The notes below the pieces were generated by a model. That model saw only the letters and a program-made list of their open reading frames with translations, ran no database searches and was not told where the DNA came from. The translations under genes and the position numbers were made by a program. Of a DNA stretch of 64,000 nucleotides, positions 1 to 47,386 are shown one piece after another; within the stretch, counting starts at the first letter, position 1, and each line of letters opens with the position of its first letter. The DNA comes from Candidatus Ferrigenium bremense (GTDB lineage: Bacteria > Pseudomonadota > Gammaproteobacteria > Burkholderiales > Gallionellaceae), in the NCBI GenBank assembly GCA_019449635.1, contig JAGRPI010000002.1, positions 21,749 to 85,748 of the forward strand, given 5' to 3'.

Positions 1-359
1 TGGCGATCAAGTCACTAAATTTCCGCAAAGGCCGATGACCGGTCGTCGGCCGAGCTGCCTGTTGCAGCTACATCATTGACCGTCGGCTTATGGCACTGAG
101 TTACTCGTCGGTCATTGTAATAGCCACCCCGGAAGCAGTCAGAATAGTTGCAAACGAACACTGCTTGCGTGTCTGTAGTGATCTTGCACAAAAGCGGTGA
201 GCAATTGACGATGAAATTCATATCCATACAGCATAGATAACTATCTGATACAAATAGAAGTATTTGATTTTTCTCCCATCTGTGCCGCATAATGTTAAAT
301 GCTAAAAGCCTTTCTCACCCGGGAAAGCGCAACGCAGAAAGAAGTAAGGTGGGCGAAAA

Positions 360-761
360 ATGATTAAACACGGGCTTGACCGCGCATCCGTCGATTTCCT
401 TGCGAAGCTGTCGAAAAGGCTCAAGGCCGAGTCCGGCTTCCATTTCGATACGGTCGCTGACGTTCCGGAGCGCCTCCTGTCAAGGTGGCGCGTGGAAAAG
501 GTCTGGGCGGATGAAGATGCAACCTTTCATTTCTATGGCTACGATCACGGGGGGTCATGCGGTCGGGTTTCGACGGCGATTCTATCCTTCGATCCCAGCA
601 CCATTACCGGGAAGACCGAGAGTGGTCGGATCTATCATCTGATCGGCAAGCCCGGATTCTGCGACGATGCGGACTACGTCATGACAAATTGGTTCTCTCG
701 GTTCAGGCATGAGGACGGAACCGATGAGTTTATCCGGAAATACATGGTCCAAAAGACATGA
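360..761 (+). CDS. Hypothetical protein (133 aa)
   Basis: ATG-start ORF with plausible composition (GRVSTAILSFDP...GKTESGRIYHLIGKPG); overlaps the next ORF by 4 nt, as in an operon. No function recognised. Confidence 0.6.
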   Translation: MIKHGLDRASVDFLAKLSKRLKAESGFHFDTVADVPERLLSRWRVEKVWADEDATFHFYGYDHGGSCGRVSTAILSFDPSTITGKTESGRIYHLIGKPGFCDDADYVMTNWFSRFRHEDGTDEFIRKYMVQKT

Positions 762-1087
762 ACAAAATCATTCTCAAGCACTCGATGACTGACGCCCGTG
801 ATTGCACCCTTGACTGGGAAGCAGATTTTGAAAAAATGGAGATGGTGCTCTACGTAACACTTATTTCACCAGGGCTGATACTGGATTTTTTAAGTTCACT
901 CCCCAGCAGGGATCAACGATTCGCCAGGATTGGCATTGCCAATGCGCTACAGATCAGCAATCGCTTCAATATCAAACTGTTCGTTGCCCATAGCGGCAGC
1001 AAGGTTTGCTACAGGCCAAGGCTATTTTTGTTGCAAGCAATCAGTGAGAAGAATGACCGGCTGGAAATCGAGTTGCTACCTTGCTAA
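758..1087 (+). CDS. Hypothetical protein (109 aa)
   Basis: ATGA start/stop overlap with the upstream ORF; no motif recognised. Confidence 0.5.
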   Translation: MNKIILKHSMTDARDCTLDWEADFEKMEMVLYVTLISPGLILDFLSSLPSRDQRFARIGIANALQISNRFNIKLFVAHSGSKVCYRPRLFLLQAISEKNDRLEIELLPC

Positions 1088-1184
1088 ATTTCTTTCAAAA
1101 TTTCCTCAGTGGATGATATTTTCGAAAGTTTTGGCAACCACCGCCTCTGGCATCGAGCTGTTAACACCGTTGCATTAACCTGTC

Positions 1185-1859
1185 TCAATCTTCAATTTCG
1201 ATACACTTTTTATACTGCCCAAAGCTAGGCAACGGCCTTGAGGGATCCCACCCGCGCCACTCTTTGCCGGGGTACATCCGGGACCAATTCTGGTGAGCGC
1301 GGCGAATAAGACGCGTTAACCAAGTGCGGATCCCGTGGTGCATTGGCCTCCTCGTCTGCATCTCGAGGAAGCCAGCCAGCTCTTGAGGCGCAGTCTTCAA
1401 AAGCTGACCGATATGGTGGTCAAGCTGCCGCTGCACGTCAGGCTTGATATGCCACGACCACCTTGTCCCACCGCCCTCTAACCTGTGCCGTTGATCTGAG
1501 TAGAGCACATAGTCGTTCCAGACAACGCGCCCGGGGTTCGTCCTTGCATCCTTCAACTTGCTGTTTTCCTGGATCGGGCCACCGCCATCACTGGCAATCA
1601 GGAACCAGACATACCCGCCCTCCAGCTCATGTTTTGAGGTAGGCGCGACCACGAGGTGCGCATTCGCCAACCCCTTTTTCTTTCGCCAACTTCTTTGGTG
1701 CGGCTTCAGATCCGTGCCGTAATGCTCGCTGAATTTTGCAGCCAGACTATCAAGTTTTTCACGACTGTCGACCACCCCGCCAACCCACCAATGAAAGCCT
1801 TTAGGCACTATACGCAACAGGAATCGCTGCGCTTCAGATTGTCTTGTGAATAGGTTCAT
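1185..1859 (-). CDS. Hypothetical basic, Trp-rich protein (~224 aa) divergent from the permuted intron RNA
   Basis: Long ORF; ATG at 1859 preceded by AAAGGAG RBS (MNLFTRQSEAQ...). Confidence 0.8.
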   Translation of the reverse strand: MNLFTRQSEAQRFLLRIVPKGFHWWVGGVVDSREKLDSLAAKFSEHYGTDLKPHQRSWRKKKGLANAHLVVAPTSKHELEGGYVWFLIASDGGGPIQENSKLKDARTNPGRVVWNDYVLYSDQRHRLEGGGTRWSWHIKPDVQRQLDHHIGQLLKTAPQELAGFLEMQTRRPMHHGIRTWLTRLIRRAHQNWSRMYPGKEWRGWDPSRPLPSFGQYKKCIEIED

Positions 1860-1965
1860 TAAGTTTTCTCCTTTACGACTATAACGCAATTCAAGCGAAT
1901 CGGTTGACATAAGTCAAGCATAACTTAGTGATTGCAATACATGATTAGTTCAACTTCTATAAATA

Positions 1966-2000
1966 GGTTTTTCTGTATATGAAGGTGGTATAGAAAAACC
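1966..2000 (+). promoter_or_regulatory. Candidate extended -10 promoter for the intron RNA, inside a 9-bp inverted repeat
   Basis: TG-G-TATAGA at 1986-1994; arms GGTTTTTCT (1966-1974) and AGAAAAACC (1992-2000). Predicted start ~2001 coincides with the start of the 5' strand that pairs with the RNA tail. Confidence 0.45.
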
Positions 2001-3335
2001 ATCTTCTTTTTTGTTGAACAACATTTATAGGCACAACGTGCTGGTTTTTGGTTAGCGCATCATCGGGGATGGCGTTTCCTACTTCCTTCTTTCACCAAAG
2101 AAAGAGGAAAGCAGGGAGCGTCAACTCCGCCAGATTCCACACGTCAAGGGACGTATGTCCCGGGGTGCCAACCCCAGCTGTTGTTGCTAACAACGGCAAG
2201 CGCTGCTTTGAGCCGTGTGCAGAGAAATTTGCATGCACGGTTCAAGGACGGGGCAGCAGGGTAATCCCGCGCAAGCGGAGTAAACCTGTTGTTCCAGTCC
2301 ATGACTTACATGAAAGATGTAAGGCGTGCGACCAAGAAACGGGGATACGGAGGAAATGCCGTAAACCCTGCTCCATTAGGCAAGGAAGGAAAATCTTGTC
2401 GACGTGTGAATCGTCAACCGTGGGCTGCATGAAAGTGCAGAACGCGAGCCACCTGGGATGGCAGTCTATGCGGAAGAAATTTCTCGCATCGGGCTCATAG
2501 CGAAGTGTTAGAGAGTTCGGAGTACCTGATTGTGAACGTCGTCACGGACGGAAGCATGAAGGACTGGCTGATAGCTTAAACCGGCAAAGCACCTGCAATG
2601 GTGCAATTGGTGGAGTTGCAAAAAAGCCATTGAAAAATGGCCTGGCACTAGGGGTTGAGATACCCCGCTGCTCATCGAAACAGAGTCAATTCCGTAACCT
2701 TACTACTTTACCGCCTTCAGGAGGGTGAAATCGTGGAGATGTGCCGCGAGATAGAGGGTTGATGATCTGGATGATGTCTATGCAACGCAATAAAGATGGA
2801 AGCTAATTGGGGAAATATCAACGTTTTCGCGTGGGGTGGCACTCATGCGGTAGTCGCGTAACGAACGACCGTCAAACGTAGATATGAGAGAGTGGTCCGA
2901 ATAGAGTAAAAAACCGTTGCCCGAAAGGCGCGGTGACCCGGAACATTGGGCGATCGGCTTTGCAGCTGGTCGGAGAGTCTCGAAAGGCTGAGGTAGTGCG
3001 AAACGTGTGGAAAGACCGGGGAACCGGTACTGGTGATGTACTTGAAGGCCGCTTGGCGGCGGCTGGAGAGAGATGTAGCAACCGATGGGATCTTGACGGA
3101 TCCCATCTCAAGAAACACGGCCATTTTTGGCTAATGAATGCCCGTGAGGGTAGGACGAAGCTCGTCCATATTAAGTGGCAGTCACCGTTTAGCTGACTGT
3201 TGTTCTTCAACAAAAAAGAATGCCGTAAGGCAGGATAAGTAATGGGCGCAAGCCCGATAACGCCGGCATAGTCCCGTGCCGGAGAATCGTTCGAGGACAT
3301 AGAAGCCACCTGCAAAGGTGGCTTCTTCTTTTTTA
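2001..3335 (+). ncRNA. Circularly permuted, ORF-less group II intron ribozyme
   Basis: Canonical 34-nt DV at 2210-2243 (GAGCCGTGTGC-AGA-GAAA-TTT-GC-AT-GCACGGTTC; AGC triad). DVI 2246-2300 with bulged A2296 at -7 and terminal AT (2301-2302). Then a 23-nt spacer, then GTGCG at 2326. Many GNRA hairpins follow and a terminator closes the unit at 3301-3334. No DI upstream of DV and no DV downstream of GTGCG. Confidence 0.88.
3301..3334 (+). terminator. Intrinsic terminator of the intron RNA
   Basis: AGAAGCCACCT-GCAA-AGGTGGCTTCT (11-bp stem) followed by TCTTTTTT. Confidence 0.85.
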
Positions 3336-3574
3336 TTGTTTTGTTGTCAAGGGGTCTGCGTAATATGCACCCCCCCAACTTATTCGCGACCAACGGGAGC
3401 CCGCCATACCGTTGAATTTTGTAGTTTTCATCGCCCCCTACATGGGATAGGGAGGGGAGTGATGAGGGGCAGGGGAAGCCGCGAATGAGGCATCCCATCC
3501 CCTCGTCGTTGGGGATGGCGGCCGCCGGGGCGTTTCAAACGCCCCAAAAGGCGAAGTTCAACTCAGGGAGATTA

Positions 3575-3607
3575 AAATAAAAGACCACCTCCGAAGAAGC
3601 GGTCTTT
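3575..3607 (-). terminator. Intrinsic terminator after the 127-aa gene
   Basis: AAAGACC...GGTCTTT stem followed by a T-rich tract on the minus strand. Confidence 0.55.
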
Positions 3608-3616
3608 ACTTACTGT

Positions 3617-4000
3617 CTACGCCACGCCTGCTTTCGCACATTCCAGCGCTTCCGCCAGAGTCGCAAAACAACCCCAGTACGTCGGTCGATCCCATGCTCC
3701 ACCGTCAAGACAATGCACATCAAATCGAATCCCGTTAGGCCAAGCTTTAAACCACTCATCACAACCAATCGCTTCCCAGTAGGCTCGCCGTTGTTCTGCG
3801 TATTCGTCGGTGTGTTTTGCCAAATAAAAACCAGCCTCACAATACGACACAATATATGGCAGCCCGAAGAACTTTTGATGCGATTGCGGGCGTTGATCGT
3901 TAGGCGTGAAATCAAAACCTTTTGGCAACTTCGGATCGACAAGAATGCCCTTAATGCATCTATTGGCTTGGAACGACTTGCCATTGATAATAAATTTCAT
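3617..4000 (-). CDS. Hypothetical protein (127 aa)
   Basis: ATG with GGAG RBS, downstream terminator, conserved-looking C-terminus (FDVHCLDGGAWDRPTYWG). No function recognised. Confidence 0.7.
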   Translation of the reverse strand: MKFIINGKSFQANRCIKGILVDPKLPKGFDFTPNDQRPQSHQKFFGLPYIVSYCEAGFYLAKHTDEYAEQRRAYWEAIGCDEWFKAWPNGIRFDVHCLDGGAWDRPTYWGCFATLAEALECAKAGVA

Positions 4001-4118
4001 GTTGTTCTCCTTGAAAATTGAAAATTAAAAAGCCTCCCGGCATCAACTTATAATTGGAAATGTAATTCATCCACTTGTAAGACGAACGAGATTCCACCTT
4101 TCCGCCCTGCGCTTTCGA

Positions 4119-4250
4119 AAAGGCAAAGGCAAAGGCAAAGGCAACAACATAGTCGCTACGCTTGGAAAGTTTCTGGCCGCCTTCCTTGGCTGCAGGATGG
4201 CAAGAGCGCCATCCGCACCCAATTCCTTGCGGTTCCCTCGCTGCGCTCGG
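4119..4250. other. Candidate replication origin / single-strand initiation region downstream of rep
   Basis: (AAAGGC)x4 at 4119-4142; CTCGCTGCGCTCGG at 4237-4250, a motif I recall from ColE1-type origin regions. Confidence 0.35.
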
Positions 4251-4354
4251 CCAGTGTTGGGGGTCATACCGCAATCAACGTCAAAGTCAAAGGCCTACTG
4301 GCTGCGCCACAACACCTAGTAATACGCACGGACTTTGGACAGGCTGAAAGCACA

Positions 4355-5755
4355 CTAGGAACACCAGATACTTACGATTGACTTCGATACGCATAACTCT
4401 GCAGCAATCTCGCGAATCGACTTACCCGTTGCCCTCAGTAAACGAGCTGTAGCGCGTTTCTTATTGTTGGATGATATGTATGCCTCACGGCTTACCATAC
4501 CGGCACTCCTGCGCCGTTCCTGTTCGCGGATTCGATGGCGTTCTGCAGCGACGTCGCCACAAATGATTGTCCGAAGCTGCCGCTGCTCTTCATCTGTAAT
4601 CTGAAACAACTGGATCAGCGTATCGTTCTTCGGCGTGTAGAGCGCCGGCATCTCCTTGCCGCCCAGTATCACTGTCCTGCCAGCAGTAAAGTCCTTCGCT
4701 TTTAAGTACAGCGTTGACAGCTCATCGCGGCGCTTAAAGTCGCCAAAACCGAACTCGCGGCACAGCTCAGCGGCCTCATGCCACACCTGGTCAGGATTGG
4801 TTGCGCCAGATAACAACAGGAAATTAAGCGACCAGAACAGCGTATTCATTGACATGCCAGCCGGCACACCACCGCGCAGCTTCATCAACGTCCGGATATC
4901 TTCGACCCGATGCCACGCAAGTTGGCGACCAGAGAAACCACGGAGTCCAGAAGACTTGTTCTTTCCGCCCGGCAACAGCTCCAGATGAGCCTTTTTCGCT
5001 TCTCGCGCTTCCCTGGCTGCGACCATCCGGGCTTTTTCTTCTTCGCTGAAAGGATGGTTTTGCTTCTTCTTGTCGAAGACCGAATCATCCATACGATAAA
5101 CCGATAGCTCCTCAAAGTCATAGCGCTTGGGCAACCCGTCATCGCCGTCGGTAAAATCAAGTACGCGAACCGTGGCGCCTGACTTCGTGTTTATTGTGTC
5201 AACAAGGCGCAACACTCGAGATGCATCCTTCGCATTGGCGTCGGCGCCGATCTCGGCAAACAGATCAACCAACATTGCTTGAGTTGCATTCCAGCGCGGT
5301 AGCGCATGGCGTGGCAATGGCTTTTCCAACAGCCATTTGAGCTGGAGGCCTCGACCGGAGTGGATCGCGATCGAGGGATAGGGAATGTGGTTTTCCTCGC
5401 ACAAATAACGAATTGCTTGGTACGCCCATTCCGGAGTGACGCCGACGTTGTAGCAATCGATGTCAACAAACAACAAGCCAAGCCTCGCAAGATTGACGAT
5501 CCGGCGATTGGGCTTTGTGAATTCAGCTTGCGAGATCCATGTGTCGCGATCTTTCGGCAGCAGCCTGATTACCTCAGGCATGTCCGGCAACCTGTAGCTG
5601 CGCTGATGCTTCCTGTTTGTATCGGGAACCTGATACAAAACTGAGAAAAAGCCGAACCTACTAATGTCATGGTAATAGCTGGCCTCGGCTAGGGGGTCGA
5701 ATAAATCGAGTTGTTCAGTAGCAGGAACGATGTCCTGCGCGACGGCAGTTGACAT
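4355..5755 (-). CDS. Plasmid-type replication initiator, AEP primase-like N-terminus plus C-terminal HTH (~466 aa)
   Basis: LFVDID (motif I), SGRGLQ (motif II-like), DASRVLRL (motif III); C-terminal GKSIREIAAELCVSKSIV HTH; RBS GAAAGGA before ATG 5755. Confidence 0.8.
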   Translation of the reverse strand: MSTAVAQDIVPATEQLDLFDPLAEASYYHDISRFGFFSVLYQVPDTNRKHQRSYRLPDMPEVIRLLPKDRDTWISQAEFTKPNRRIVNLARLGLLFVDIDCYNVGVTPEWAYQAIRYLCEENHIPYPSIAIHSGRGLQLKWLLEKPLPRHALPRWNATQAMLVDLFAEIGADANAKDASRVLRLVDTINTKSGATVRVLDFTDGDDGLPKRYDFEELSVYRMDDSVFDKKKQNHPFSEEEKARMVAAREAREAKKAHLELLPGGKNKSSGLRGFSGRQLAWHRVEDIRTLMKLRGGVPAGMSMNTLFWSLNFLLLSGATNPDQVWHEAAELCREFGFGDFKRRDELSTLYLKAKDFTAGRTVILGGKEMPALYTPKNDTLIQLFQITDEEQRQLRTIICGDVAAERHRIREQERRRSAGMVSREAYISSNNKKRATARLLRATGKSIREIAAELCVSKSIVSIWCS

Positions 5756-5782
5756 GTCCTTATTCCTTTCGGTAATAAGGAC

Positions 5783-5884
5783 TTGCACAAAACGGCGAAA
5801 GCGGTTATATTGCGAATGTCATCGCCAAACGACACGCAGCAATACCCAGGGGCTTGTCACCATAAGGTGCAAGCCCTTTCTATT
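5783..5884 (+). ncRNA. Candidate counter-transcribed antisense RNA (ctRNA) in the rep leader, with promoter and terminator
   Basis: TTGCAC-17 nt-TATATT (5783-5811); hairpin GGGCTTG-T-CACC-ATAA-GGTG-CAAGCCC (5850-5876) followed by TTTCTATTT; predicted RNA ~65 nt. Confidence 0.6.
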
Positions 5885-6269
5885 TGCTGGATTCCAGGCC
5901 CGAGATGGAGTGCTGGGCGCGGAGTTCTTTCACAGTGAGATGGCGGCGGGAGGCTTCCGCAAGCTCACTGGCTGACGGCCGGCCAGTGCGCGCCGCCTGC
6001 TGCTTAGGTGGTTTAGCCTGGATAATTGGCAGGCCGGCCAGAAAGCGAACAATCTCGTCAGGATTGTAGAGACGTTTACCAGCCAGGCGGCGGTATGGAA
6101 TGTTACCAAGCCCACCGCGCAGTCGGTCCTGGCGCAAACGAGTAAGGCCAAACGGTAAGGGAGCGCCCAGCGCACGGAAATGCGCGATGAGTTTTTCATC
6201 GGTGAGGTAGAGGGCTGCTACAGGTGCTGCGATTTGAGCCGCAGCGGGCTGTGGAAGTTGAACACGCAT
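5880..6269 (-). CDS. Excisionase/AlpA-like DNA-binding protein
   Basis: Small basic protein with Xis-like IPYRRLAGKRLYNPDEIVRF segment, located between integrase and rep. Confidence 0.6.
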   Translation of the reverse strand: MRVQLPQPAAAQIAAPVAALYLTDEKLIAHFRALGAPLPFGLTRLRQDRLRGGLGNIPYRRLAGKRLYNPDEIVRFLAGLPIIQAKPPKQQAARTGRPSASELAEASRRHLTVKELRAQHSISGLESSK

Positions 6270-6742
6270 GATGGCGAATTCCCTTTCTTTCAAAAGTTAA
6301 TTCGCCGGGTGAGTTTTTGGGTGTTGCGCGGCTGATCTGTTGGTTACTGGTCCAAGCTCACTCGCTGCCTTCACCGCAGCAATATCCTGTCGGATATGAA
6401 CGTGCTTGCCTGATTCGGCGTAACCGCCGGCTTGAAAGGCTCCTCGCTGCGGCATGCTCCGCAAAGTACCCCGTCCAATCAAGACATAGCCAAATTATAT
6501 TCATTGCTCAACAAAACACAACATCTTTTCTTTAATTTCACTTATCTCCTTTCATCCTGAAAAGAGGAAGCGAAATTTCTGTTGATTTTATTGATTTTTG
6601 CGGCAGCGGCCGGGATGCCAAACAGGAGTCGGTGTCGAGCTTTTTTATCTGCATGGCGTGCAATATGTGGAGAATGTGCGCAAGCAAATCGCCGGAAGCC
6701 TTATGCCACAAGGGTTTGAGGTGTGTTGATACTGCGGCGTTG

Positions 6743-7807
6743 TTACCGCGCAGCCTGCATACGCTCAATTCCGGCGTGCAGCTCATCAACTCCGGCGTGA
6801 TAGTACCTGGCCGCCATAGCTGGCGTCTTCCAGCCCATGATCGCCATTAGGGTGAGCATAGGGTAATGTGGCGCCATGCGTGAAGCCGCCTCGTGGCGCG
6901 TGCAGTGAAAGACGCCACCCTCAATGCCGATTTTCTTGCAAGCCGACGTAAAGGCGCGGGAAAGCCCATCAGCGCTTGTTTTGCGAACCGTCTGGAATAC
7001 AAGGGCGCTTGAGTCGAGCGCCTGCGGTAAAGTGCCCAACAATTCCATGGCGCGAGGGGAGAGGGGCACTAAGCGCTTCTTGCGCTGGCCGGATCTGCTG
7101 GATGTGTCTTTTCCCCACACTTCAACGATCCGCCGCGCCTTGTCGAGGTCGCGCCAAGCCATGCGCATCAATTCATCTTCGCGCATGCCGGTTTCGATGG
7201 CGAACTCCGCGATCACGACGTACTGCTTGTTCCGGCACTTCCTCAACTCGTCGGACAGCTTCGGCCAGATATCCGGAGGGATACGCACGTCGCGCGCCTG
7301 GCTGCCACCCGGCTTGCTGATCTTCTTGGTAGGGTTCTCGATGGCGTAACCCCAATCCCGGCGCGCTGACTCAAACACATTCGAGATGGCGATGAGTTCA
7401 TGCTTGATCGTTTGCTCAGCGACCCCACCGCCACGCTTGGATTTATCCTTCCGGCGCTGCGCGATATGGTCTGCAAAGTCCTTCGGCAAACAGCGCGAGA
7501 TCGGCCGGTCGGCGAGTGGATGACGCAACCAGGCCTTGAGGCGCACAATTTCCTGCTTGGCTCCAAGCTTCTTCAAGCTCACCTCATCAATATACCGCTG
7601 GATTAAGTCGCGCAGTGGCGTGGCATCCAGCAAGCGGGTATCATTGTGCTGCGCGCGTTTGAGGTCGGCTTCCAGCGCCTGAGCCCAGTCTTCAGCCTCA
7701 CGCATTGTCGGAAATGATTTTGATTCTCGATGCATTAGTCCGGTCGCACGATTTTTCATCTCGACCTGCGCCCGGTAGCTACTTTTTCGTTTCTGGATCA
7801 TTGCCAT
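6743..7807 (-). CDS. int: Tyrosine recombinase (phage-type integrase)
   Basis: ETGMREDEL (catalytic R), FHCTRHEAAS (HxxR), MGWKTPAMAARYY (W/Y); adjacent to the att site. Confidence 0.95.
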   Translation of the reverse strand: MAMIQKRKSSYRAQVEMKNRATGLMHRESKSFPTMREAEDWAQALEADLKRAQHNDTRLLDATPLRDLIQRYIDEVSLKKLGAKQEIVRLKAWLRHPLADRPISRCLPKDFADHIAQRRKDKSKRGGGVAEQTIKHELIAISNVFESARRDWGYAIENPTKKISKPGGSQARDVRIPPDIWPKLSDELRKCRNKQYVVIAEFAIETGMREDELMRMAWRDLDKARRIVEVWGKDTSSRSGQRKKRLVPLSPRAMELLGTLPQALDSSALVFQTVRKTSADGLSRAFTSACKKIGIEGGVFHCTRHEAASRMAPHYPMLTLMAIMGWKTPAMAARYYHAGVDELHAGIERMQAAR

Positions 7808-7821
7808 GTTTTTTCTACAAC

Positions 7822-7842
7822 CCCGCCAAAAGCCCGCCAAAA
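7822..7842 (+). repeat. Paired 10-bp direct repeats, likely integrase arm-type sites
   Basis: CCCGCCAAAA at 7822-7831 and 7833-7842, between the int start and att. Confidence 0.45.
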
Positions 7843-7898
7843 CTCAACGGAGTTTATTTTAAGTGATTGATAGAAAAAGGGCAAATAAAAAATAAACT

Positions 7899-7961
7899 AC
7901 GGACTTAAAATCCGTCGAGGCTTAACCCCTCGTACCGGTTCGATTCCGGTTCCGGGCACCA
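7899..7961 (+). other. att site: 3' fragment of tRNA-Leu(TAA)
   Basis: ACGGA-CTTAAAA-TCCGT anticodon arm, long variable arm, GGTTCGATTCC T-arm and CCA end; the 5' acceptor strand and D-arm are missing (AT-rich sequence instead). Confidence 0.9.
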
Positions 7962-7997: not shown

Positions 7998-10469
7998 CTA
8001 TTTGAGTACCGGTTTGGCTCCCCAGATCCTGTCGGCATATTCGCTTATGGTGCGGTCGCTGGAGAATTTTCCCATGCTGGCCACATTTAGGATGGCGCGG
8101 CGCGTCCATTGTTGCCGATCGCGGTATAGCGCCTCCACACGCTCCTGTGCGGCAATGTAGGCTTCATAGTCGGCCAGCAGCAGATAACGGTCCCCGAAGT
8201 GGGTGAGATTGTCGACGATGGGCCGGAAGCGGTCGGCCTGTTCGGGGGAGAAGTAACCCGAGGCGATCATGTCCAGTGCCCATTTCAGTTCGGCGTTGTT
8301 ATGGTAGTAATTCCAGGGGTTGTAACCGGAATTCTTCAGCTCGGCGACTTCCTGCGCGTCAAGTCCGAAGATGAAGATGTTGTCTTTGCCCACTTCCTCC
8401 ATGATCTCGATATTGGCTCCGTCGAGCGTGCCGATGGTCAGCGCGCCGTTGAGGGCGAGCTTCATGTTGCCGGTGCCGGAGGCCTCGGTGCCCGCCGTGG
8501 AGATTTGCTGAGACAGGTCCGCCGCCGGGATGATGATACTGGCGGTGGACACATCGTAATTGGGGATGAAGGCCAGCTTCAGCAGGCCGCGCGCGGCAGG
8601 ATCGTTGTTGACGATGTCGGCGATGCTGTTGGCGAGCTTGATGATGAGTTTGGCGGTGGCATAACCGGGCGCCGCCTTGCCGGAAATGATCACGGTGCGC
8701 GGCACGGCATCCAGCGACGGATTGGAACGGATGCGGTTATACAGGGTGACGACATGGAGCAGGTTGAGAAGCTGCCGCTTGTATTCGTGGATACGCTTGA
8801 CCTGGACATCGAACAGGCTGTCCGGGTCGATCTTGAGAGCCAGCCTGCTCATTACCAGCTCGGCCAGGCGCTCCTTGTTGGCGCGTTTCACGGCACGGAA
8901 TTCGGCCTGAAAAGTACCATCGCCGGCCAGATTGTCCAACTGGCGCAATTGCGACAGGTCGGTGATCCACTCTTTGCCAATGCGGCCGGTGATCAGGCCG
9001 GCCAGTTCCGGGTTGGCCTGGTTCAGCCACAGGCGCGGGGTGATGCCGTTGGTGATGTTGGTGAGCTTGTCCGGGTAGTAGCGGTGGAAATCGGCGAAGA
9101 TGGTGGTTTTCATCAACTCTGAATGGAGTTGCGCCACACCGTTGACATGATGGCTGCCGACGATAGCCAGATGCGCCATGCGCACGCGGCGGCCATGTGT
9201 TTCGTCGATGATGGACATGCGTTTGAGCAGCTCATTGTCGCCGGGGAAACAGTGCATGACTTCCTTTAAAAAACGCTGGTTGATCTCGTAAATGATCTGC
9301 AGATGACGCGGCAGCACCGACTCGAATAGAGCCACCGGCCAGGTTTCCAGCGCTTCCGGCATCAGCGTGTGATTGGTGTAGGCAAAGGTGTTGCTGATGA
9401 TTCGCCAGGCATGATCCCATTCCATGTGATGGATATCCACCAGCAAACGCATCAGTTCCGGAATGGCGATGGAAGGGTGGGTATCGTTGAGCTGGATCGC
9501 CACCTTGTCCGGCAGTTCGTCGAAGGTCTCATGGTGCTTGTGGAAGCGGTGCAGGATGTCCTGCAGCGATGCGCTGACGAAGAAATATTGCTGCTTGAGG
9601 CGCAGTTCCTTGCCCATGTCGGTGGTGTCGACGGGATATAGCACCTTGGAGAGGTTCTCCGATTCATTCTTGTCTTCCACCGCCTTGATGTAGTTGCCCT
9701 CGTTGAAGTACTTGAGGTCGAAATCGCGCGAAGCCTTGGCCGACCACAGGCGCATGTTGTTGACGGTGTCGAGTCCGTAGCCCGGAACCGGCGTGTCGTA
9801 GGCCATCGCCATGACATCGTCGGTGTCTATCCAGTGATGATGCAGCCGGCCGAGTTCATCGGCGTATTGCACCACATGGCCGTAAAACTTCACCGGGTAC
9901 AGTACTTCCGGGCGCGGGAATTCCCACGGATTGCCATAGCGCAGCCAGTTATCCGGATGCTCCACCTGCCAGCCGTCTTCTATCCTCTGGTTGAACATGC
10001 CATATTCGTAACGGATGCCCATGCCGTAGCCGGGCAGGCCGATGGTCGCCATGGAATCGAGAAAACAGGCGGCCAGCCTTCCCAGACCGCCATTGCCGAG
10101 CGCGGCGTCGAATTCCAGTTCCGTCACTCTGTCCAGATTGACGCCGGCTTCGATGCAGGCCTGGCGGACTTCCTCGAGAAAACCGACATTGAGCACGCTG
10201 TTCATCAGGCTGCGCCCGATGAGAAATTCCATGGAGAGGTAGTACACCCGCTTGGCATCGTCACGATAGTAGCGGCGCATGGTTTCCATCCAGCGCTCGA
10301 TCAGGCGATCGCGAACCACTCCCGCAAGGGTGAAGAACCAGTCGCGGTCGGTGGCAGTGATGGGGTCCTTGCCGATGGAAAAAATGAGATGGTTGGTCAG
10401 GGACTGCCTGACCGAATCCAGGTTGAGGTTGAGCGGTTCATGCTGGGAGATTTTCGGTGCTTTTGGCAT
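7998..10469 (-). CDS. glgP: Glycogen/starch phosphorylase (GT35)
   Basis: LGNGGLGRLAACFLDS, QVKRIHEYKRQ and EASGTGNMK (PLP lysine) motifs. Confidence 0.97.
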   Translation of the reverse strand: MPKAPKISQHEPLNLNLDSVRQSLTNHLIFSIGKDPITATDRDWFFTLAGVVRDRLIERWMETMRRYYRDDAKRVYYLSMEFLIGRSLMNSVLNVGFLEEVRQACIEAGVNLDRVTELEFDAALGNGGLGRLAACFLDSMATIGLPGYGMGIRYEYGMFNQRIEDGWQVEHPDNWLRYGNPWEFPRPEVLYPVKFYGHVVQYADELGRLHHHWIDTDDVMAMAYDTPVPGYGLDTVNNMRLWSAKASRDFDLKYFNEGNYIKAVEDKNESENLSKVLYPVDTTDMGKELRLKQQYFFVSASLQDILHRFHKHHETFDELPDKVAIQLNDTHPSIAIPELMRLLVDIHHMEWDHAWRIISNTFAYTNHTLMPEALETWPVALFESVLPRHLQIIYEINQRFLKEVMHCFPGDNELLKRMSIIDETHGRRVRMAHLAIVGSHHVNGVAQLHSELMKTTIFADFHRYYPDKLTNITNGITPRLWLNQANPELAGLITGRIGKEWITDLSQLRQLDNLAGDGTFQAEFRAVKRANKERLAELVMSRLALKIDPDSLFDVQVKRIHEYKRQLLNLLHVVTLYNRIRSNPSLDAVPRTVIISGKAAPGYATAKLIIKLANSIADIVNNDPAARGLLKLAFIPNYDVSTASIIIPAADLSQQISTAGTEASGTGNMKLALNGALTIGTLDGANIEIMEEVGKDNIFIFGLDAQEVAELKNSGYNPWNYYHNNAELKWALDMIASGYFSPEQADRFRPIVDNLTHFGDRYLLLADYEAYIAAQERVEALYRDRQQWTRRAILNVASMGKFSSDRTISEYADRIWGAKPVLK

Positions 10470-38233: not shown

Positions 38234-38344
38234 GCCAACCGTCACGCAAAACTCGTGATGCGAGTTTAGTAGCTCGGAGTTCAAGGCGGACAACCGCCCC
38301 CAGTGCGGTTTTTTTACGTCCGTAAGCATGGCAGGCCAAGTTTT

Positions 38345-38415
38345 GGCGGGCTGTGCGGGGCATCTTCGGATGCGCCGGTTCCTTGACCCGGTCTACTAAC
38401 CTGCACAGTTCCGCC
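38345..38415 (+). ncRNA. C4-type antisense RNA (P1/P7 c4-like)
   Basis: Three-way fold GGCGGGCTGTGCGGG/CCTGCACAGTTCCGCC, GCATC-TTCG-GATGC and CCGG-loop-CCGG. Unpaired TCCTTGA and CTACTAA match target pairs upstream (38264-38286) and downstream (38421-38461). Confidence 0.8.
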
Positions 38416-38469
38416 TCCTCGTTTAGTAGCGGGGGAGCGGGAAATTCAAACCGTTCAAGGAGAATTACC

Positions 38470-46901: not shown

Positions 46902-46978
46902 TGGGGTGGCTGATGGGACTCGAACCCACGACAACTGGAATCACAATCCAGGACTCTACCAACTGAGCTACAGCCACC
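46902..46978 (-). tRNA. tRNA-His(GTG)
   Basis: Full cloverleaf with G-1, anticodon GTG, CCA. Confidence 0.97.
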
Positions 46979-47060
46979 ACTGATGAAGCAATTAGCCATT
47001 CGGCAGAGCCGATAAACAACATCGGCGAGCCGCTGGTTATGAACTTTGCTTGTCTGACAC

Positions 47061-47137
47061 TGGCGTGCCCGACAGGAATCGAACCTGTAACCCCCAGCTT
47101 AGAAGGCTGGTGCTCTATCCGGTTGAGCTACGGGCAC
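47061..47137 (-). tRNA. tRNA-Arg(TCT)
   Basis: Full cloverleaf, anticodon loop CTTCTAA, CCA. Confidence 0.97.
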
Positions 47138-47309
47138 AATTCTTTTCTCTATAAATCCAGATTTCATCCCAACTGCTGCGTTGCGTAAAAAATTTCTTGC
47201 TTGCATATAAAGCATATGCGGCGCTGCGAAATTTTTTCCACGCCCTGCATTTGGGCGAACTCTGAATTTCTAGAGCCACCCTAGGGCTAATTAAAAAGCT
47301 GCTGAAACC

Positions 47310-47386
47310 TGGTCGGGGTGGAGAGATTCGAACTCCCGACATCCTGCTCCCAAAGCAGGCGCGCTACCAGGCTACGCTACACCCCG
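47310..47386 (-). tRNA. tRNA-Pro(TGG)
   Basis: Full cloverleaf, anticodon loop TTTGGGA, CCA. Confidence 0.97.

What the first reader, a model, noticed from the sequence alone, without database searches (positions are those of the whole stretch)
1185..2000. Unknown 224-aa protein transcribed head-to-head with the permuted intron: candidate partner
Seen: a basic, Trp/Arg-rich ORF with a strong RBS shares a ~140-nt AT-rich divergent promoter region with the ribozyme. A 9-bp inverted repeat (1966-1974/1992-2000) overlaps the RNA's candidate extended -10. It has no RT, maturase or endonuclease motif that I recognise. Inference: protein plus ribozyme could be a two-component system (maturase substitute, regulator, or an effector held in check by the RNA product). 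Adjacency in one genome is the only evidence.
Basis: inference. Interest (0 to 1): 0.62.

Follow-up and report, generated by a model that had tools for sequence, protein, structure and literature searches.

The report
AcpG partner gene of permuted intron
The 224-aa gene is a diverged member of AcpG, a protein family already reported in 2021 as genetically associated with circularly permuted group II ribozymes; here the pairing is strict in every related locus, but what the protein does is still unknown.

Summary
ORF 1185-1859 (-) encodes a 224-aa basic protein (pI 10.0, 21 Arg, 11 Trp) with an AAGGAG ribosome-binding site. [quoted passage not shown] The protein is not an orphan. [quoted passage not shown] 2021), a family whose function is unknown. 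In all 12 distinct related loci that have upstream DNA, the same 1.2-1.3 kb RNA lies divergently upstream. Its 5' edge is 180-204 nt from the ATG in ten of them. The flanking genes differ from locus to locus: integrases, TrfA, RepC or RepB replicons, restriction systems, toxin-antitoxin pairs, TIR. Distant AcpG genes on 4-8 kb plasmids also sit near a CP-type RNA. The AF2 model is confident (pLDDT 87) but matches no solved or viral structure, and Pfam, PHROGs, NCBIfam and PADLOC give nothing. Metatranscriptome contigs cover both genes. It flanks a motif, TGAAGGTRG, that is invariant in 11 of 11 loci. Most likely AcpG is a nucleic-acid-binding partner of the ribozyme in a mobile two-gene module. 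It is a new member of a known kind.

The parts
1185..1859 (-). acpG homologue: 224-aa basic protein of the AcpG/TTHC007 family
   Evidence: ORF. 35 close homologues. jackhmmer link to TTHC007: E 2.6e-17 at first inclusion, reciprocal 3.3e-38. AF2 pLDDT 86.9. Metatranscriptome contigs cover 1319-1934.
1868..1873 (-). Shine-Dalgarno sequence AAGGAG, 8 nt upstream of the ATG
   Evidence: Read from the sequence.
1860..2042 (.). Shared AT-rich (33% GC) divergent control region with conserved blocks, including TTGACA at 1904-1909 and ATTGCAATACATGAT at 1931-1945
   Evidence: Alignments of 6 and 11 loci. The consensus scan called no sigma-70 promoter.
1980..1988 (.). Motif TGAAGGTRG, invariant in 11 of 11 homologous intergenic regions, about 120 nt from the acpG ATG and about 55-60 nt from the conserved 5' edge of the RNA. 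Candidate operator, promoter element or RNA-leader element.
   Evidence: Invariant columns T121-T127 and G129. No conserved complementary segment was found in the RNA.
1966..2000 (.).
   Evidence: Equivalent repeats with compensating changes (GGATTTTC/GAAAATCC) occur only in the nearest relatives L017 and L110. They are absent from 8 more distant loci.
2043..3331 (+). Circularly permuted group II RNA (conserved extent about 1.29 kb): leader hairpins, D5-D6, linker, then the D1-D4 region
   Evidence: The full-length nhmmer profile matches 2043-3331 and all related loci. RNA-run contigs cover 2274-2814 and 3169-3326.
2208..2302 (+). Domains D5 and D6 (catalytic AGC triad, bulged branch A in CCAGTCCAT), ending at the 3' splice site after 2302
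   Evidence: RF00029 at 52.9 bits. 17 of 31 pairs show compensatory changes across 11 loci.
2303..2325 (+). 23-nt linker ('exon') GACTTACATGAAAGATGTAAGGC, a small hairpin predicted to be released as an RNA circle
   Evidence: It lies between the invariant CCAU and GUGCG. This follows the reaction shown for other CP group II RNAs in PMC8637638. It is inferred here, not shown.
2326..2330 (+). 5' splice-site consensus GUGCG at the start of D1, downstream of D6 (reversed splice-site order)
   Evidence: Present in all ten loci whose extracted stretch reaches it; invariant in the 7-locus alignment.
3301..3336 (+). Intrinsic terminator of the RNA (11-bp stem followed by a T-run)
   Evidence: One metatranscriptome contig ends at 3326.
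4355..7840 (-). Backbone of the carrier element: primase/replicase-like protein (4355-5788), small ORF (5880-6293) and tyrosine integrase (6743-7840). Chromosomal sugar-metabolism genes start at 7998.
   Evidence: phrog_9432 replication protein, E 4e-16. Phage_integrase, E 4e-20, then glycogen phosphorylase, 6PGD and G6PD. G6PD is 94% identical to Gallionella MAGs.

Best explanation
The gene encodes a diverged AcpG, the protein family genetically associated with circularly permuted group II ribozymes. Together with the 1.29-kb ribozyme gene it forms a compact unit of about 2.15 kb (1185-3336), transcribed divergently from a shared 184-nt control region. This unit travels as cargo on plasmids and integrative elements; here the carrier is an integrase- and primase-bearing element in a Gallionella chromosome. 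Shown: family membership, strict synteny, co-divergence, conservation of the ribozyme's catalytic elements, and in-situ RNA coverage. Inferred: AcpG is a strongly basic, non-enzymatic nucleic-acid-binding protein that acts on the ribozyme or its products. It would fill the role that the intron-encoded maturase fills for ordinary group II introns, by stabilising the active fold or holding the branched or circular product. The CP RNAs carry no ORF in D4. It may also bind the invariant TGAAGGTRG element to balance the two promoters. The cellular benefit probably accrues to the mobile element (stability, exclusion or defence), but that is not known.
For: Family: jackhmmer from the window protein first includes TTHC007 of pTT8 at E 2.6e-17 and the T. 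aquaticus homologue at 9e-26. In the reverse search, TTHC007 picks up the window protein at 3.3e-38 in round 2. tblastn hits fall on the replicons that Roth et al. list as carrying CP RNAs: Ralstonia, G. diazotrophicus, T. aquaticus and T. oshimai. Synteny: the RNA is found divergently upstream in 12 of 12 distinct loci, with its 5' edge 180-204 nt from the ATG in 10 of them. Flanking genes differ in every locus. Distant clade: a CP-type RNA core lies next to acpG on plasmids of 4.2 to 70 kb. Co-divergence: Mantel r 0.63, p 0.0004. The ribozyme is intact: D5/D6 covariation, with GUGCG and CCAU conserved. Protein character: pI 9.4-11.1 in all 54 diverse members. The residues conserved across the family are mainly G, K, R, Y, W and P, with the acidic positions only moderately conserved and no recognisable catalytic motif. 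There are no enzyme domains. The model is confident and shows an alpha/beta domain plus a basic three-helix C-terminus. Expression: metatranscriptome contigs cover both genes. Literature: Roth et al. name a helper role as a possibility.
Against: No binding or activity data exist. CP group II RNAs self-process in vitro without protein. Roth et al. report many CP RNAs with no acpG nearby and genomes that lack acpG altogether. The model has no similarity to maturases, to the RNase P protein or to any known RNA-binding fold. The only hint, S. aureus RnpA at E 0.14, is not significant and is not backed by Pfam or Foldseek. The RNA-seq evidence comes from unstranded assembled contigs, which may include DNA, and no back-splice joint was seen. 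Correlated divergence would follow from linkage alone.
Confidence: 0.5

Rival explanations
1. AcpG is mainly a DNA-binding regulator. It binds the invariant TGAAGGTRG element (flanked in this clade by the inverted repeat) in the shared intergenic region. It thereby controls transcription of the ribozyme gene, its own gene, or both, without touching the RNA.
For: The arrangement is divergent at fixed spacing, and the motif is invariant in 11 of 11 loci while the surrounding DNA varies. The inverted repeat shows compensating changes in the nearest relatives. The C-terminus is a basic three-helix unit. No conserved RNA segment complementary to the motif was found, which favours a DNA-level role for it.
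Against: No HTH or other DNA-binding domain was detected by Pfam in any of 54 members, beyond scattered single weak hits. Foldseek also found none. The motif is not palindromic, and the inverted repeat is absent from 8 of 11 loci. At 220-260 aa with a conserved alpha/beta domain, the protein is larger than a simple repressor. In L008 and pHaKG2_3 another gene separates acpG from the RNA.
Confidence: 0.2
2. The pair is a conflict module of mobile elements (addiction, exclusion or anti-phage defence). AcpG would be the effector or toxin, and the ribozyme or its circular or branched product would be the antidote or trigger, loosely like type III toxin-antitoxin systems or retrons.
For: The module is the main cargo of 4.2-4.7 kb plasmids that otherwise carry only a Rep gene and a few small genes. 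In larger loci it sits among type I and type ISP restriction systems, TIR, PIN/Phd, HigBA-like and DUF4258/HTH pairs, WYL-WCX regulators and integrases. According to Roth et al., deleting the RNA on pTT8 does not impair replication.
Against: PADLOC gave no hit, apart from one stray BrxC hit in 54 members. There is no nuclease, pore or NADase domain. The neighbourhood evidence is anecdotal, since accessory regions of mobile elements are generally rich in such genes. The linker that would become the circle is short and not conserved in sequence. Roth et al. use the same point to argue that the circle is not the active agent.
Confidence: 0.17
3. AcpG has a plasmid or ICE housekeeping function unrelated to the RNA (for example in replication, partition or transfer). 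The two genes would be neighbours only because both ride the same backbones.
For: Many homologues lie beside type IV coupling-protein or replication-initiator genes. Roth et al. caution that the association may not reflect physical interaction.
Against: The backbones are unrelated (TrfA, RepB, RepL, RepC/IncQ-like, primase plus integrase), yet the pair keeps the same orientation and spacing to within about 25 nt. Each replicon has its own replication genes. Neither the protein nor the RNA was found alone in any locus examined where both could be seen.
Confidence: 0.1

Closest known systems
[quoted passage not shown]
   Same: Homologous by iterative HMM search in both directions. Similar size (224 aa against about 260 aa), no known domain, and encoded immediately upstream of and divergent from a CP group II RNA, as at both T. 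thermophilus HB8 loci. Found on plasmids and integrated elements.
   Different: Only about 22-26% identical to the Thermus proteins. It belongs to a tight subfamily (35 clusters at 50% identity or more, all from metagenomes). Its RNA is longer (about 1.29 kb against about 0.9 kb). It has near-canonical splice-site motifs (GUGCG and AU, against GGGCG and NU in C. testosteroni). Its linker is very short (23 nt against 86 nt). Its D5-D6 scores above Rfam's group II threshold, unlike pTT8. In this subfamily the association is obligatory in the sample (12 of 12), whereas Roth et al. describe a looser association.
Group II intron-encoded protein / maturase (e.g. LtrA; RT plus X domain)
   Same: Possible functional analogy: a dedicated protein encoded with a group II-type ribozyme that helps it fold or act in vivo.
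   Different: There is no RT, X/thumb, DNA-binding or endonuclease domain and no structural match. The gene lies outside the RNA on the opposite strand, not in D4. No retromobility is expected.
Bacterial RNase P protein (RnpA/C5)
   Same: A small, very basic protein cofactor of a large ribozyme. The family profile gives a weak local match to S. aureus RnpA (QRxYxK...AN..FVV) with the same helix-strand-strand order.
   Different: E 0.14-1 from what is in effect one protein. No member hits Pfam Ribonuclease_P, and Foldseek does not retrieve it. This is a lead only, not a relationship.
RNA-protein modules of mobile elements (type III toxin-antitoxin such as ToxIN; retrons)
   Same: A compact unit of non-coding RNA plus protein, carried on plasmids and in defence-rich islands.
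   Different: There is no repeat-array antitoxin RNA, no endoribonuclease toxin fold, no reverse transcriptase and no PADLOC match. The resemblance rests on context only.

Membership tests
AcpG (TTHC007-like) | Sequence homology to TTHC007 of T. thermophilus HB8 pTT8 | tested here: met
   jackhmmer with Z=1e6: TTHC007 enters at E 2.6e-17 and the T. aquaticus homologue at 9e-26, from a profile that does not yet contain them. In the reverse search, TTHC007 round 2 hits the window protein at 3.3e-38. A direct hhalign of the narrow alignment against the single sequence gave only E 0.014, though collinear over 178 columns.
AcpG (TTHC007-like) | Encoded in proximity to a CP group II RNA | tested here: met
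   D5 starts 349 nt from the ATG on the opposite strand. The same holds in 12 of 12 related loci.
AcpG (TTHC007-like) | About 200-260 aa with no similarity to a known protein class | tested here: met
   224 aa. Zero hits in Pfam, PHROGs, PADLOC and NCBIfam. No significant PDB sequence or fold match.
Circularly permuted group II RNA (partner gene) | Domain order D5-D6 before D1-D4, with the 3' splice site upstream of the 5' splice site | tested here: met
   RF00029 D5-D6 at 2208-2302, then CCAU | 23-nt linker | GUGCG at 2326, followed by about 1 kb of conserved RNA ending in a terminator. D1-D4 were not modelled domain by domain.
Circularly permuted group II RNA (partner gene) | Conserved catalytic structure (D5 triad and bulge, D6 branch A) supported by covariation | tested here: met
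   17 of 31 D5/D6 pairs have compensatory changes. The triad AGC-to-CGC change covaries with its pairing partner. The branch A is retained.
Circularly permuted group II RNA (partner gene) | Back-splicing to a branched RNA plus a small circle | not testable with these tools
   Only assembled metatranscriptome contigs were available, and no joint was reported.
Group II intron maturase / IEP | Reverse-transcriptase fingers-palm and X (maturase) domains | tested here: not met
   No RVT or maturase Pfam hit in the window protein or in 54 family members. No fold match.
RNase P protein (Ribonuclease_P, PF00825) | Significant profile or fold match including the RNR motif | tested here: not met
   Best E 0.14 to S. 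aureus RnpA. None of 54 members hits PF00825. It is absent from the 50 Foldseek PDB hits shown.
Known anti-phage defence or toxin-antitoxin proteins | Match to a PADLOC model or a recognised toxin or effector domain | tested here: not met
   PADLOC gave none for the window protein and one stray BrxC hit (E 0.0017) in 54 members.
HTH-type transcription factor | Recognisable DNA-binding domain | tested here: not met
   No consistent HTH family across members. DNA binding itself was not testable.

The most novel reading that the evidence does not exclude
AcpG, a protein with no detectable relative of known structure, and the CP group II ribozyme together form a self-contained RNP cargo module of about 2 kb on plasmids and integrative elements. 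The module would act in conflicts between mobile elements or with phages (addiction, exclusion or defence). AcpG would read out or be controlled by the ribozyme's branched or circular product. That would be the first biological role for a back-splicing ribozyme in bacteria.
Probability: 0.15. Interest if true: 0.8.

Novelty: new member of a known kind. Interest (0 to 1): 0.4.

Why it matters
CP group II ribozymes are one of the few large bacterial ribozyme classes with no known biological role, and AcpG is the only genetic clue to that role. This locus does not reveal the function. It does define a well-populated subfamily in which protein and RNA are inseparable, sit at fixed spacing and share a control region with an invariant motif. 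The RNA is close to canonical group II consensus, the AcpG model is confident, and both genes appear in environmental RNA data. That makes it a good system for the direct tests that are still missing: binding, effect on back-splicing, toxicity, and plasmid stability or defence. The observation that the pair is almost the only cargo of 4-5 kb plasmids, and sits in defence-rich islands elsewhere, narrows the plausible roles.

Tried and rejected
1. Domain libraries (Pfam, PHROGs, PADLOC, NCBIfam) on the window protein, on 54 diverse family members and on 10 unusually long members gave nothing informative.

2. PDB sequence search with the single protein gave only noise. The family profile gave a weak S. 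aureus RnpA match (E 0.14). I considered it as a 'ribozyme cofactor' lead and set it aside, because neither Pfam nor Foldseek supports it.

3. Foldseek of a confident model against PDB and BFVD gave no match (best E 0.75 and 0.16, TM at or below 0.39).

4. I looked for a conserved third gene. The ORFs downstream of acpG on Thermus and Burkholderiales plasmids are not homologous across clades. The 127-129-aa ORFs beyond the RNA's 3' end are also unrelated.

5. Promoter assignment: the consensus scan found no sigma-70 promoter in 1100-3700. My manual attempts to fit -35/-10 pairs to the conserved blocks (TTGACA, ATTGCAATACATGAT, TGAAGGTRG) were inconsistent across loci, so I make no promoter or TSS call.

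6. I tested whether the invariant motif is the loop of a conserved hairpin or pairs with the RNA's 3' end. The hairpin exists only in the window, in L017 and partly in L110, and no conserved complement was found.

7. Rfam RF00029 alone under-detects these RNAs: it missed L024, L008 and pTT8. A full-length nhmmer profile was needed. A hand-written D5 descriptor found only the clear cases.

8. No relatives were found in GTDB species representatives, IMG/VR or INPHARED phages. A degenerate RNA pattern gave 114 IMG/VR matches, none of which matched the RNA profile.

9. Replication role: each carrier has its own Rep system, and Roth et al. cite a pTT8 deletion that leaves replication intact. I therefore did not pursue it.

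Full report
**What is in the window**

On the minus strand, 1185-1859 encodes a 224-aa protein, preceded by AAGGAG (1868-1873) 8 nt upstream of the ATG. The longer 241-aa reading from the ATG at 1910 is not supported, because all 35 close homologues start at the equivalent of Met-1 of the 224-aa form. The protein is strongly basic (pI 10.0) and has 21 Arg, 15 Lys, 11 Trp and 12 His.

On the plus strand, Rfam's group II intron D5-D6 model matches 2208-2302 at 52.9 bits against a gathering score of 40. D6 ends in CCAGTCCAU at 2302. A 23-nt hairpin linker follows (2303-2325), and then the 5' splice-site consensus GUGCG (2326-2330). About 1 kb of conserved RNA comes next, ending in an intrinsic terminator at 3301-3336. 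This is the D5-D6-linker-D1-D4 order that defines circularly permuted (CP) group II RNAs (PMC8637638).

The region between the two genes (1860-2042) is 33% GC, against 57% for the window. The only correction is that the shared region measures 184 nt to the conserved 5' edge of the RNA, and 349 nt to D5, rather than about 140 nt.

**Identity of the protein**

Pfam, PHROGs, PADLOC, NCBIfam and a PDB sequence search gave nothing. A word-indexed search of 5.8 billion proteins found 35 clusters at 50-82% identity. All are from metagenomes and nearly all are unnamed. A profile search of 1.84 billion representatives found 370 clusters at E<=1e-3, mostly 200-280 aa. tblastn against PLSDB found 23 plasmids, with 24-33% identity among the 18 listed hits at E<=1e-4 and E down to 6e-14. 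They include Ralstonia, Paraburkholderia, Gluconacetobacter diazotrophicus PA1 5, Thermus aquaticus Y51MC23 and T. oshimai JL-2.

The literature search showed that Roth et al. [quoted passage not shown] This is TTHC007 of T. thermophilus pTT8, about 260 aa, divergent from the RNA and named AcpG. They found no detectable homology to any known class and no known function. I fetched pTT8 and ran jackhmmer on the collected proteins. From the window protein, TTHC007 is first included at E 2.6e-17 and the T. aquaticus homologue at 9e-26 (Z=1e6). From TTHC007, the window protein is picked up in round 2 at 3.3e-38. The replicons hit by tblastn are the ones listed in Roth's Data S1. The window protein is therefore a diverged AcpG. 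Apart from Roth et al. 2021, no paper in the searchable library that mentions AcpG together with group II concerns this protein. A 2026 structural preprint on a CP intron discusses the RNA alone.

**Is the pairing more than adjacency in one genome?**

Nine metagenome loci and further contigs encoding close homologues were fetched. RF00029 at its gathering score found D5-D6 on the opposite strand, 350-365 nt from the ATG, in most of them. It missed some.

I therefore built an nhmmer profile from eight full-length RNA regions. It matches window 2043-3331. It also finds the RNA divergently upstream of acpG in every distinct locus that has upstream DNA. These are the window, L002/L009, L003/L112/L113, L004, L005, the L006 type, L017-L019, L024, L109, L110/L111, L008 and the 4.7-kb plasmid pM02_c2. 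That is 12 of 12. L001 starts at the gene and is uninformative.

The RNA's 5' edge lies 180-204 nt from the ATG in ten loci and 145 nt in pM02_c2. In L008 the distance is 1316 nt, because a 367-aa repetitive ORF is inserted in the acpG orientation. An RNA-first blastn against PLSDB found only pM02_c2, which has acpG.

For the distant Burkholderiales-type AcpG clade, I used the 2-kb gap upstream of the Ralstonia gene as the query. It recovers homologous non-coding DNA next to acpG in P. terrae, P. aromaticivorans, G. diazotrophicus, an 8-kb Azotobacter plasmid and the 4.2-kb Halomonas plasmid pHaKG2_3. In pHaKG2_3 the match lies under an annotated 'hypothetical protein' CDS. The window-type profile also touches the 5'-splice-site/D1 region of the P. 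terrae gap, on the strand opposite to acpG.

Protein and RNA pairwise identities are correlated (Mantel r 0.63, p 0.0004). This is expected for a unit inherited together. For the reverse direction I could not run an RNA-first scan of metagenomes. Roth et al. state that many CP RNAs have no acpG nearby.

**The ribozyme is intact**

Across 11 loci, 17 of the 31 predicted D5/D6 pairs show compensatory double changes. These include the AGC-to-CGC triad variant, which covaries with its partner. GUGCG, CCAU and the bulged branch A are conserved. L110/L111 have a shortened D6 that keeps the basal stem and the branch A. The linker varies in length (about 20-36 nt) and in sequence. This agrees with Roth's argument that the circle itself is unlikely to be the functional agent.

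**The shared control region**

An 11-locus alignment shows conserved blocks. These include a perfect TTGACA (1904-1909), ATTGCAATACATGAT (1931-1945), and a motif TGAAGGTRG (1980-1988) that is invariant in all 11 loci, including the distant plasmid. Equivalent repeats with compensating changes (GGATTTTC/GAAAATCC) occur in the two nearest relatives, L017 and L110, but not in the other eight loci. No conserved complementary segment exists in the RNA. The consensus scan calls no sigma-70 promoter, and I could not assign promoters consistently. The TGn of the proposed extended -10 is not conserved. The motif is a good candidate protein-binding or promoter element, but its role is open.

**Expression and context**

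Three metatranscriptome runs from the same freshwater-sediment study as the source DNA contain contigs that cover acpG (1319-1934) and the RNA (2274-2814 and 3169-3326). One contig ends at the terminator stem. These are unstranded assemblies, and no back-splice joint was seen.

The window is a Gallionella chromosome: G6PD is 94% identical to Gallionella MAGs. The module lies in an integrated element with a primase/replicase-like gene (4355-5788) and a tyrosine integrase (6743-7840). Glycogen and pentose-phosphate genes follow from 7998.

In other loci the pair sits on unrelated backbones. These are TrfA plus an integrase, an IncQ-like RepC/Mob plasmid, RepB or RepL mini-plasmids, and conjugative plasmids where it lies beside the coupling-protein gene. 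Its neighbours include type I and type ISP restriction systems, TIR, PIN/Phd, HigBA-like pairs and WYL-WCX regulators. Neither the protein nor the RNA was found in IMG/VR, and the protein was not found in GenBank phages.

**What the protein might do**

AF2 with the 35-sequence alignment gives a confident model (pLDDT 86.9, pTM 0.78). It has an alpha/beta domain with five strands (24-30, 67-73, 83-89, 117-123, 132-138) and a C-terminal three-helix unit (140-195) that ends in an Arg-rich helix. Foldseek finds no match in PDB or BFVD.

Across 141 diverse members the conserved positions are G21, Y22, G28, K42, Y47, R56, G63, W85, G92, the W134-T-W136 triplet, P172, F174, G176, R178 and Q180. Basic and aromatic residues and Gly/Pro dominate that set; the few acidic positions are only moderately conserved and no catalytic motif is recognisable. 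All 54 sampled members have pI 9.4-11.1. This fits a nucleic-acid-binding protein better than an enzyme.

The family profile gives a weak match to S. aureus RNase P protein (E 0.14). That is evocative, because RNase P protein is the cofactor of another large ribozyme. It is not significant, and neither Pfam nor Foldseek supports it. I record it only as a lead.

**Verdict**

The most likely reading (about 0.5) is that AcpG is the dedicated nucleic-acid-binding partner of the ribozyme. It would be a functional stand-in for the missing maturase or a holder of the processed RNA, possibly also acting on the shared control region. The two genes would form a mobile two-gene module. The rivals are a purely transcriptional regulator (0.2), an effector in an addiction or defence module (0.17) and an unrelated backbone gene (0.1). 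They are not mutually exclusive.

The association itself was published in 2021, so the finding is a new and unusually clean member of a known kind rather than a new kind. Its value is as a tractable system for an open question, namely what CP group II ribozymes and AcpG are for.

Noticed in passing
window 1980-1988 (equivalent positions in L002-L006, L015, L017, L024, L109, L110): TGAAGGTRG is invariant in 11 of 11 acpG/CP-RNA intergenic regions, although the flanking DNA is only about 48% conserved. It is not palindromic and has no conserved complement in the RNA. Its function is unknown.
   Followed up: partly
L014 (CP098531.1) 1006-1830; L015 (JX194161.1) 416-646 and 1139-1348: CDSs annotated as 'hypothetical protein' on two 4-5 kb plasmids lie over the CP group II RNA homology. 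They are probably spurious calls on a non-coding RNA gene.
   Followed up: partly
L110/L111 about 7520-7660 (-): The closest AcpG relative (78% identity) is paired with an RNA whose D6 is shortened to a basal stem that keeps the branch-site A. Overall RNA identity is only 58%, so the RNA has diverged faster than the protein in this lineage.
   Followed up: no
L008 4885-5988 (+): A 367-aa ORF with an N-terminal membrane segment and (P)VTQ-type repeats is inserted between the RNA and acpG. It ends 13 nt before the acpG ATG. This is the only close-subfamily locus where the fixed spacing is broken.
   Followed up: no
window 4355-7840: The module sits in an integrated element (primase/replicase-like gene, small ORF, tyrosine integrase) that ends next to glycogen phosphorylase at 7998. 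The left end of the element lies beyond position 1 of the window. GC is 52% in 1-7900 against 58% in the rest of the window.
   Followed up: partly
window 38339-38421 (+): Rfam C4 antisense RNA (the P1/P7-type phage immunity RNA family) at 61.9 bits. This suggests a second mobile or prophage region in the window.
   Followed up: no
window 46905-47386 (-): A cluster of three tRNA genes (66-72 bits).
   Followed up: no
window 1000-3700 in DNA run X1: Assembler word depth is about 3900-4400 in a run of only 58 Mb, with minor variant paths at 1846-1936 (depth 1-10). The organism or element dominates that sample. Depth relative to the neighbouring chromosome was not compared.
   Followed up: no
L017 9524-15125; L020 7256-13782; L024 7081-14162: Neighbours of the module include a thymidylate synthase with aGPT-Pplase3/ADDT genes (thymidine hypermodification type), a TIR_2 protein, an M78 peptidase, a type I R-M system with DUF6602, and a type ISP enzyme with PIN/Phd. 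These are defence-island-like settings.
   Followed up: partly
AcpG residues about 45-105 (family profile positions 46-105): Weak local similarity to S. aureus RNase P protein (QRxYxK..AN..FVV, then a strand and a basic helix; E 0.14-1). It is not supported by Pfam or Foldseek.
   Followed up: yes
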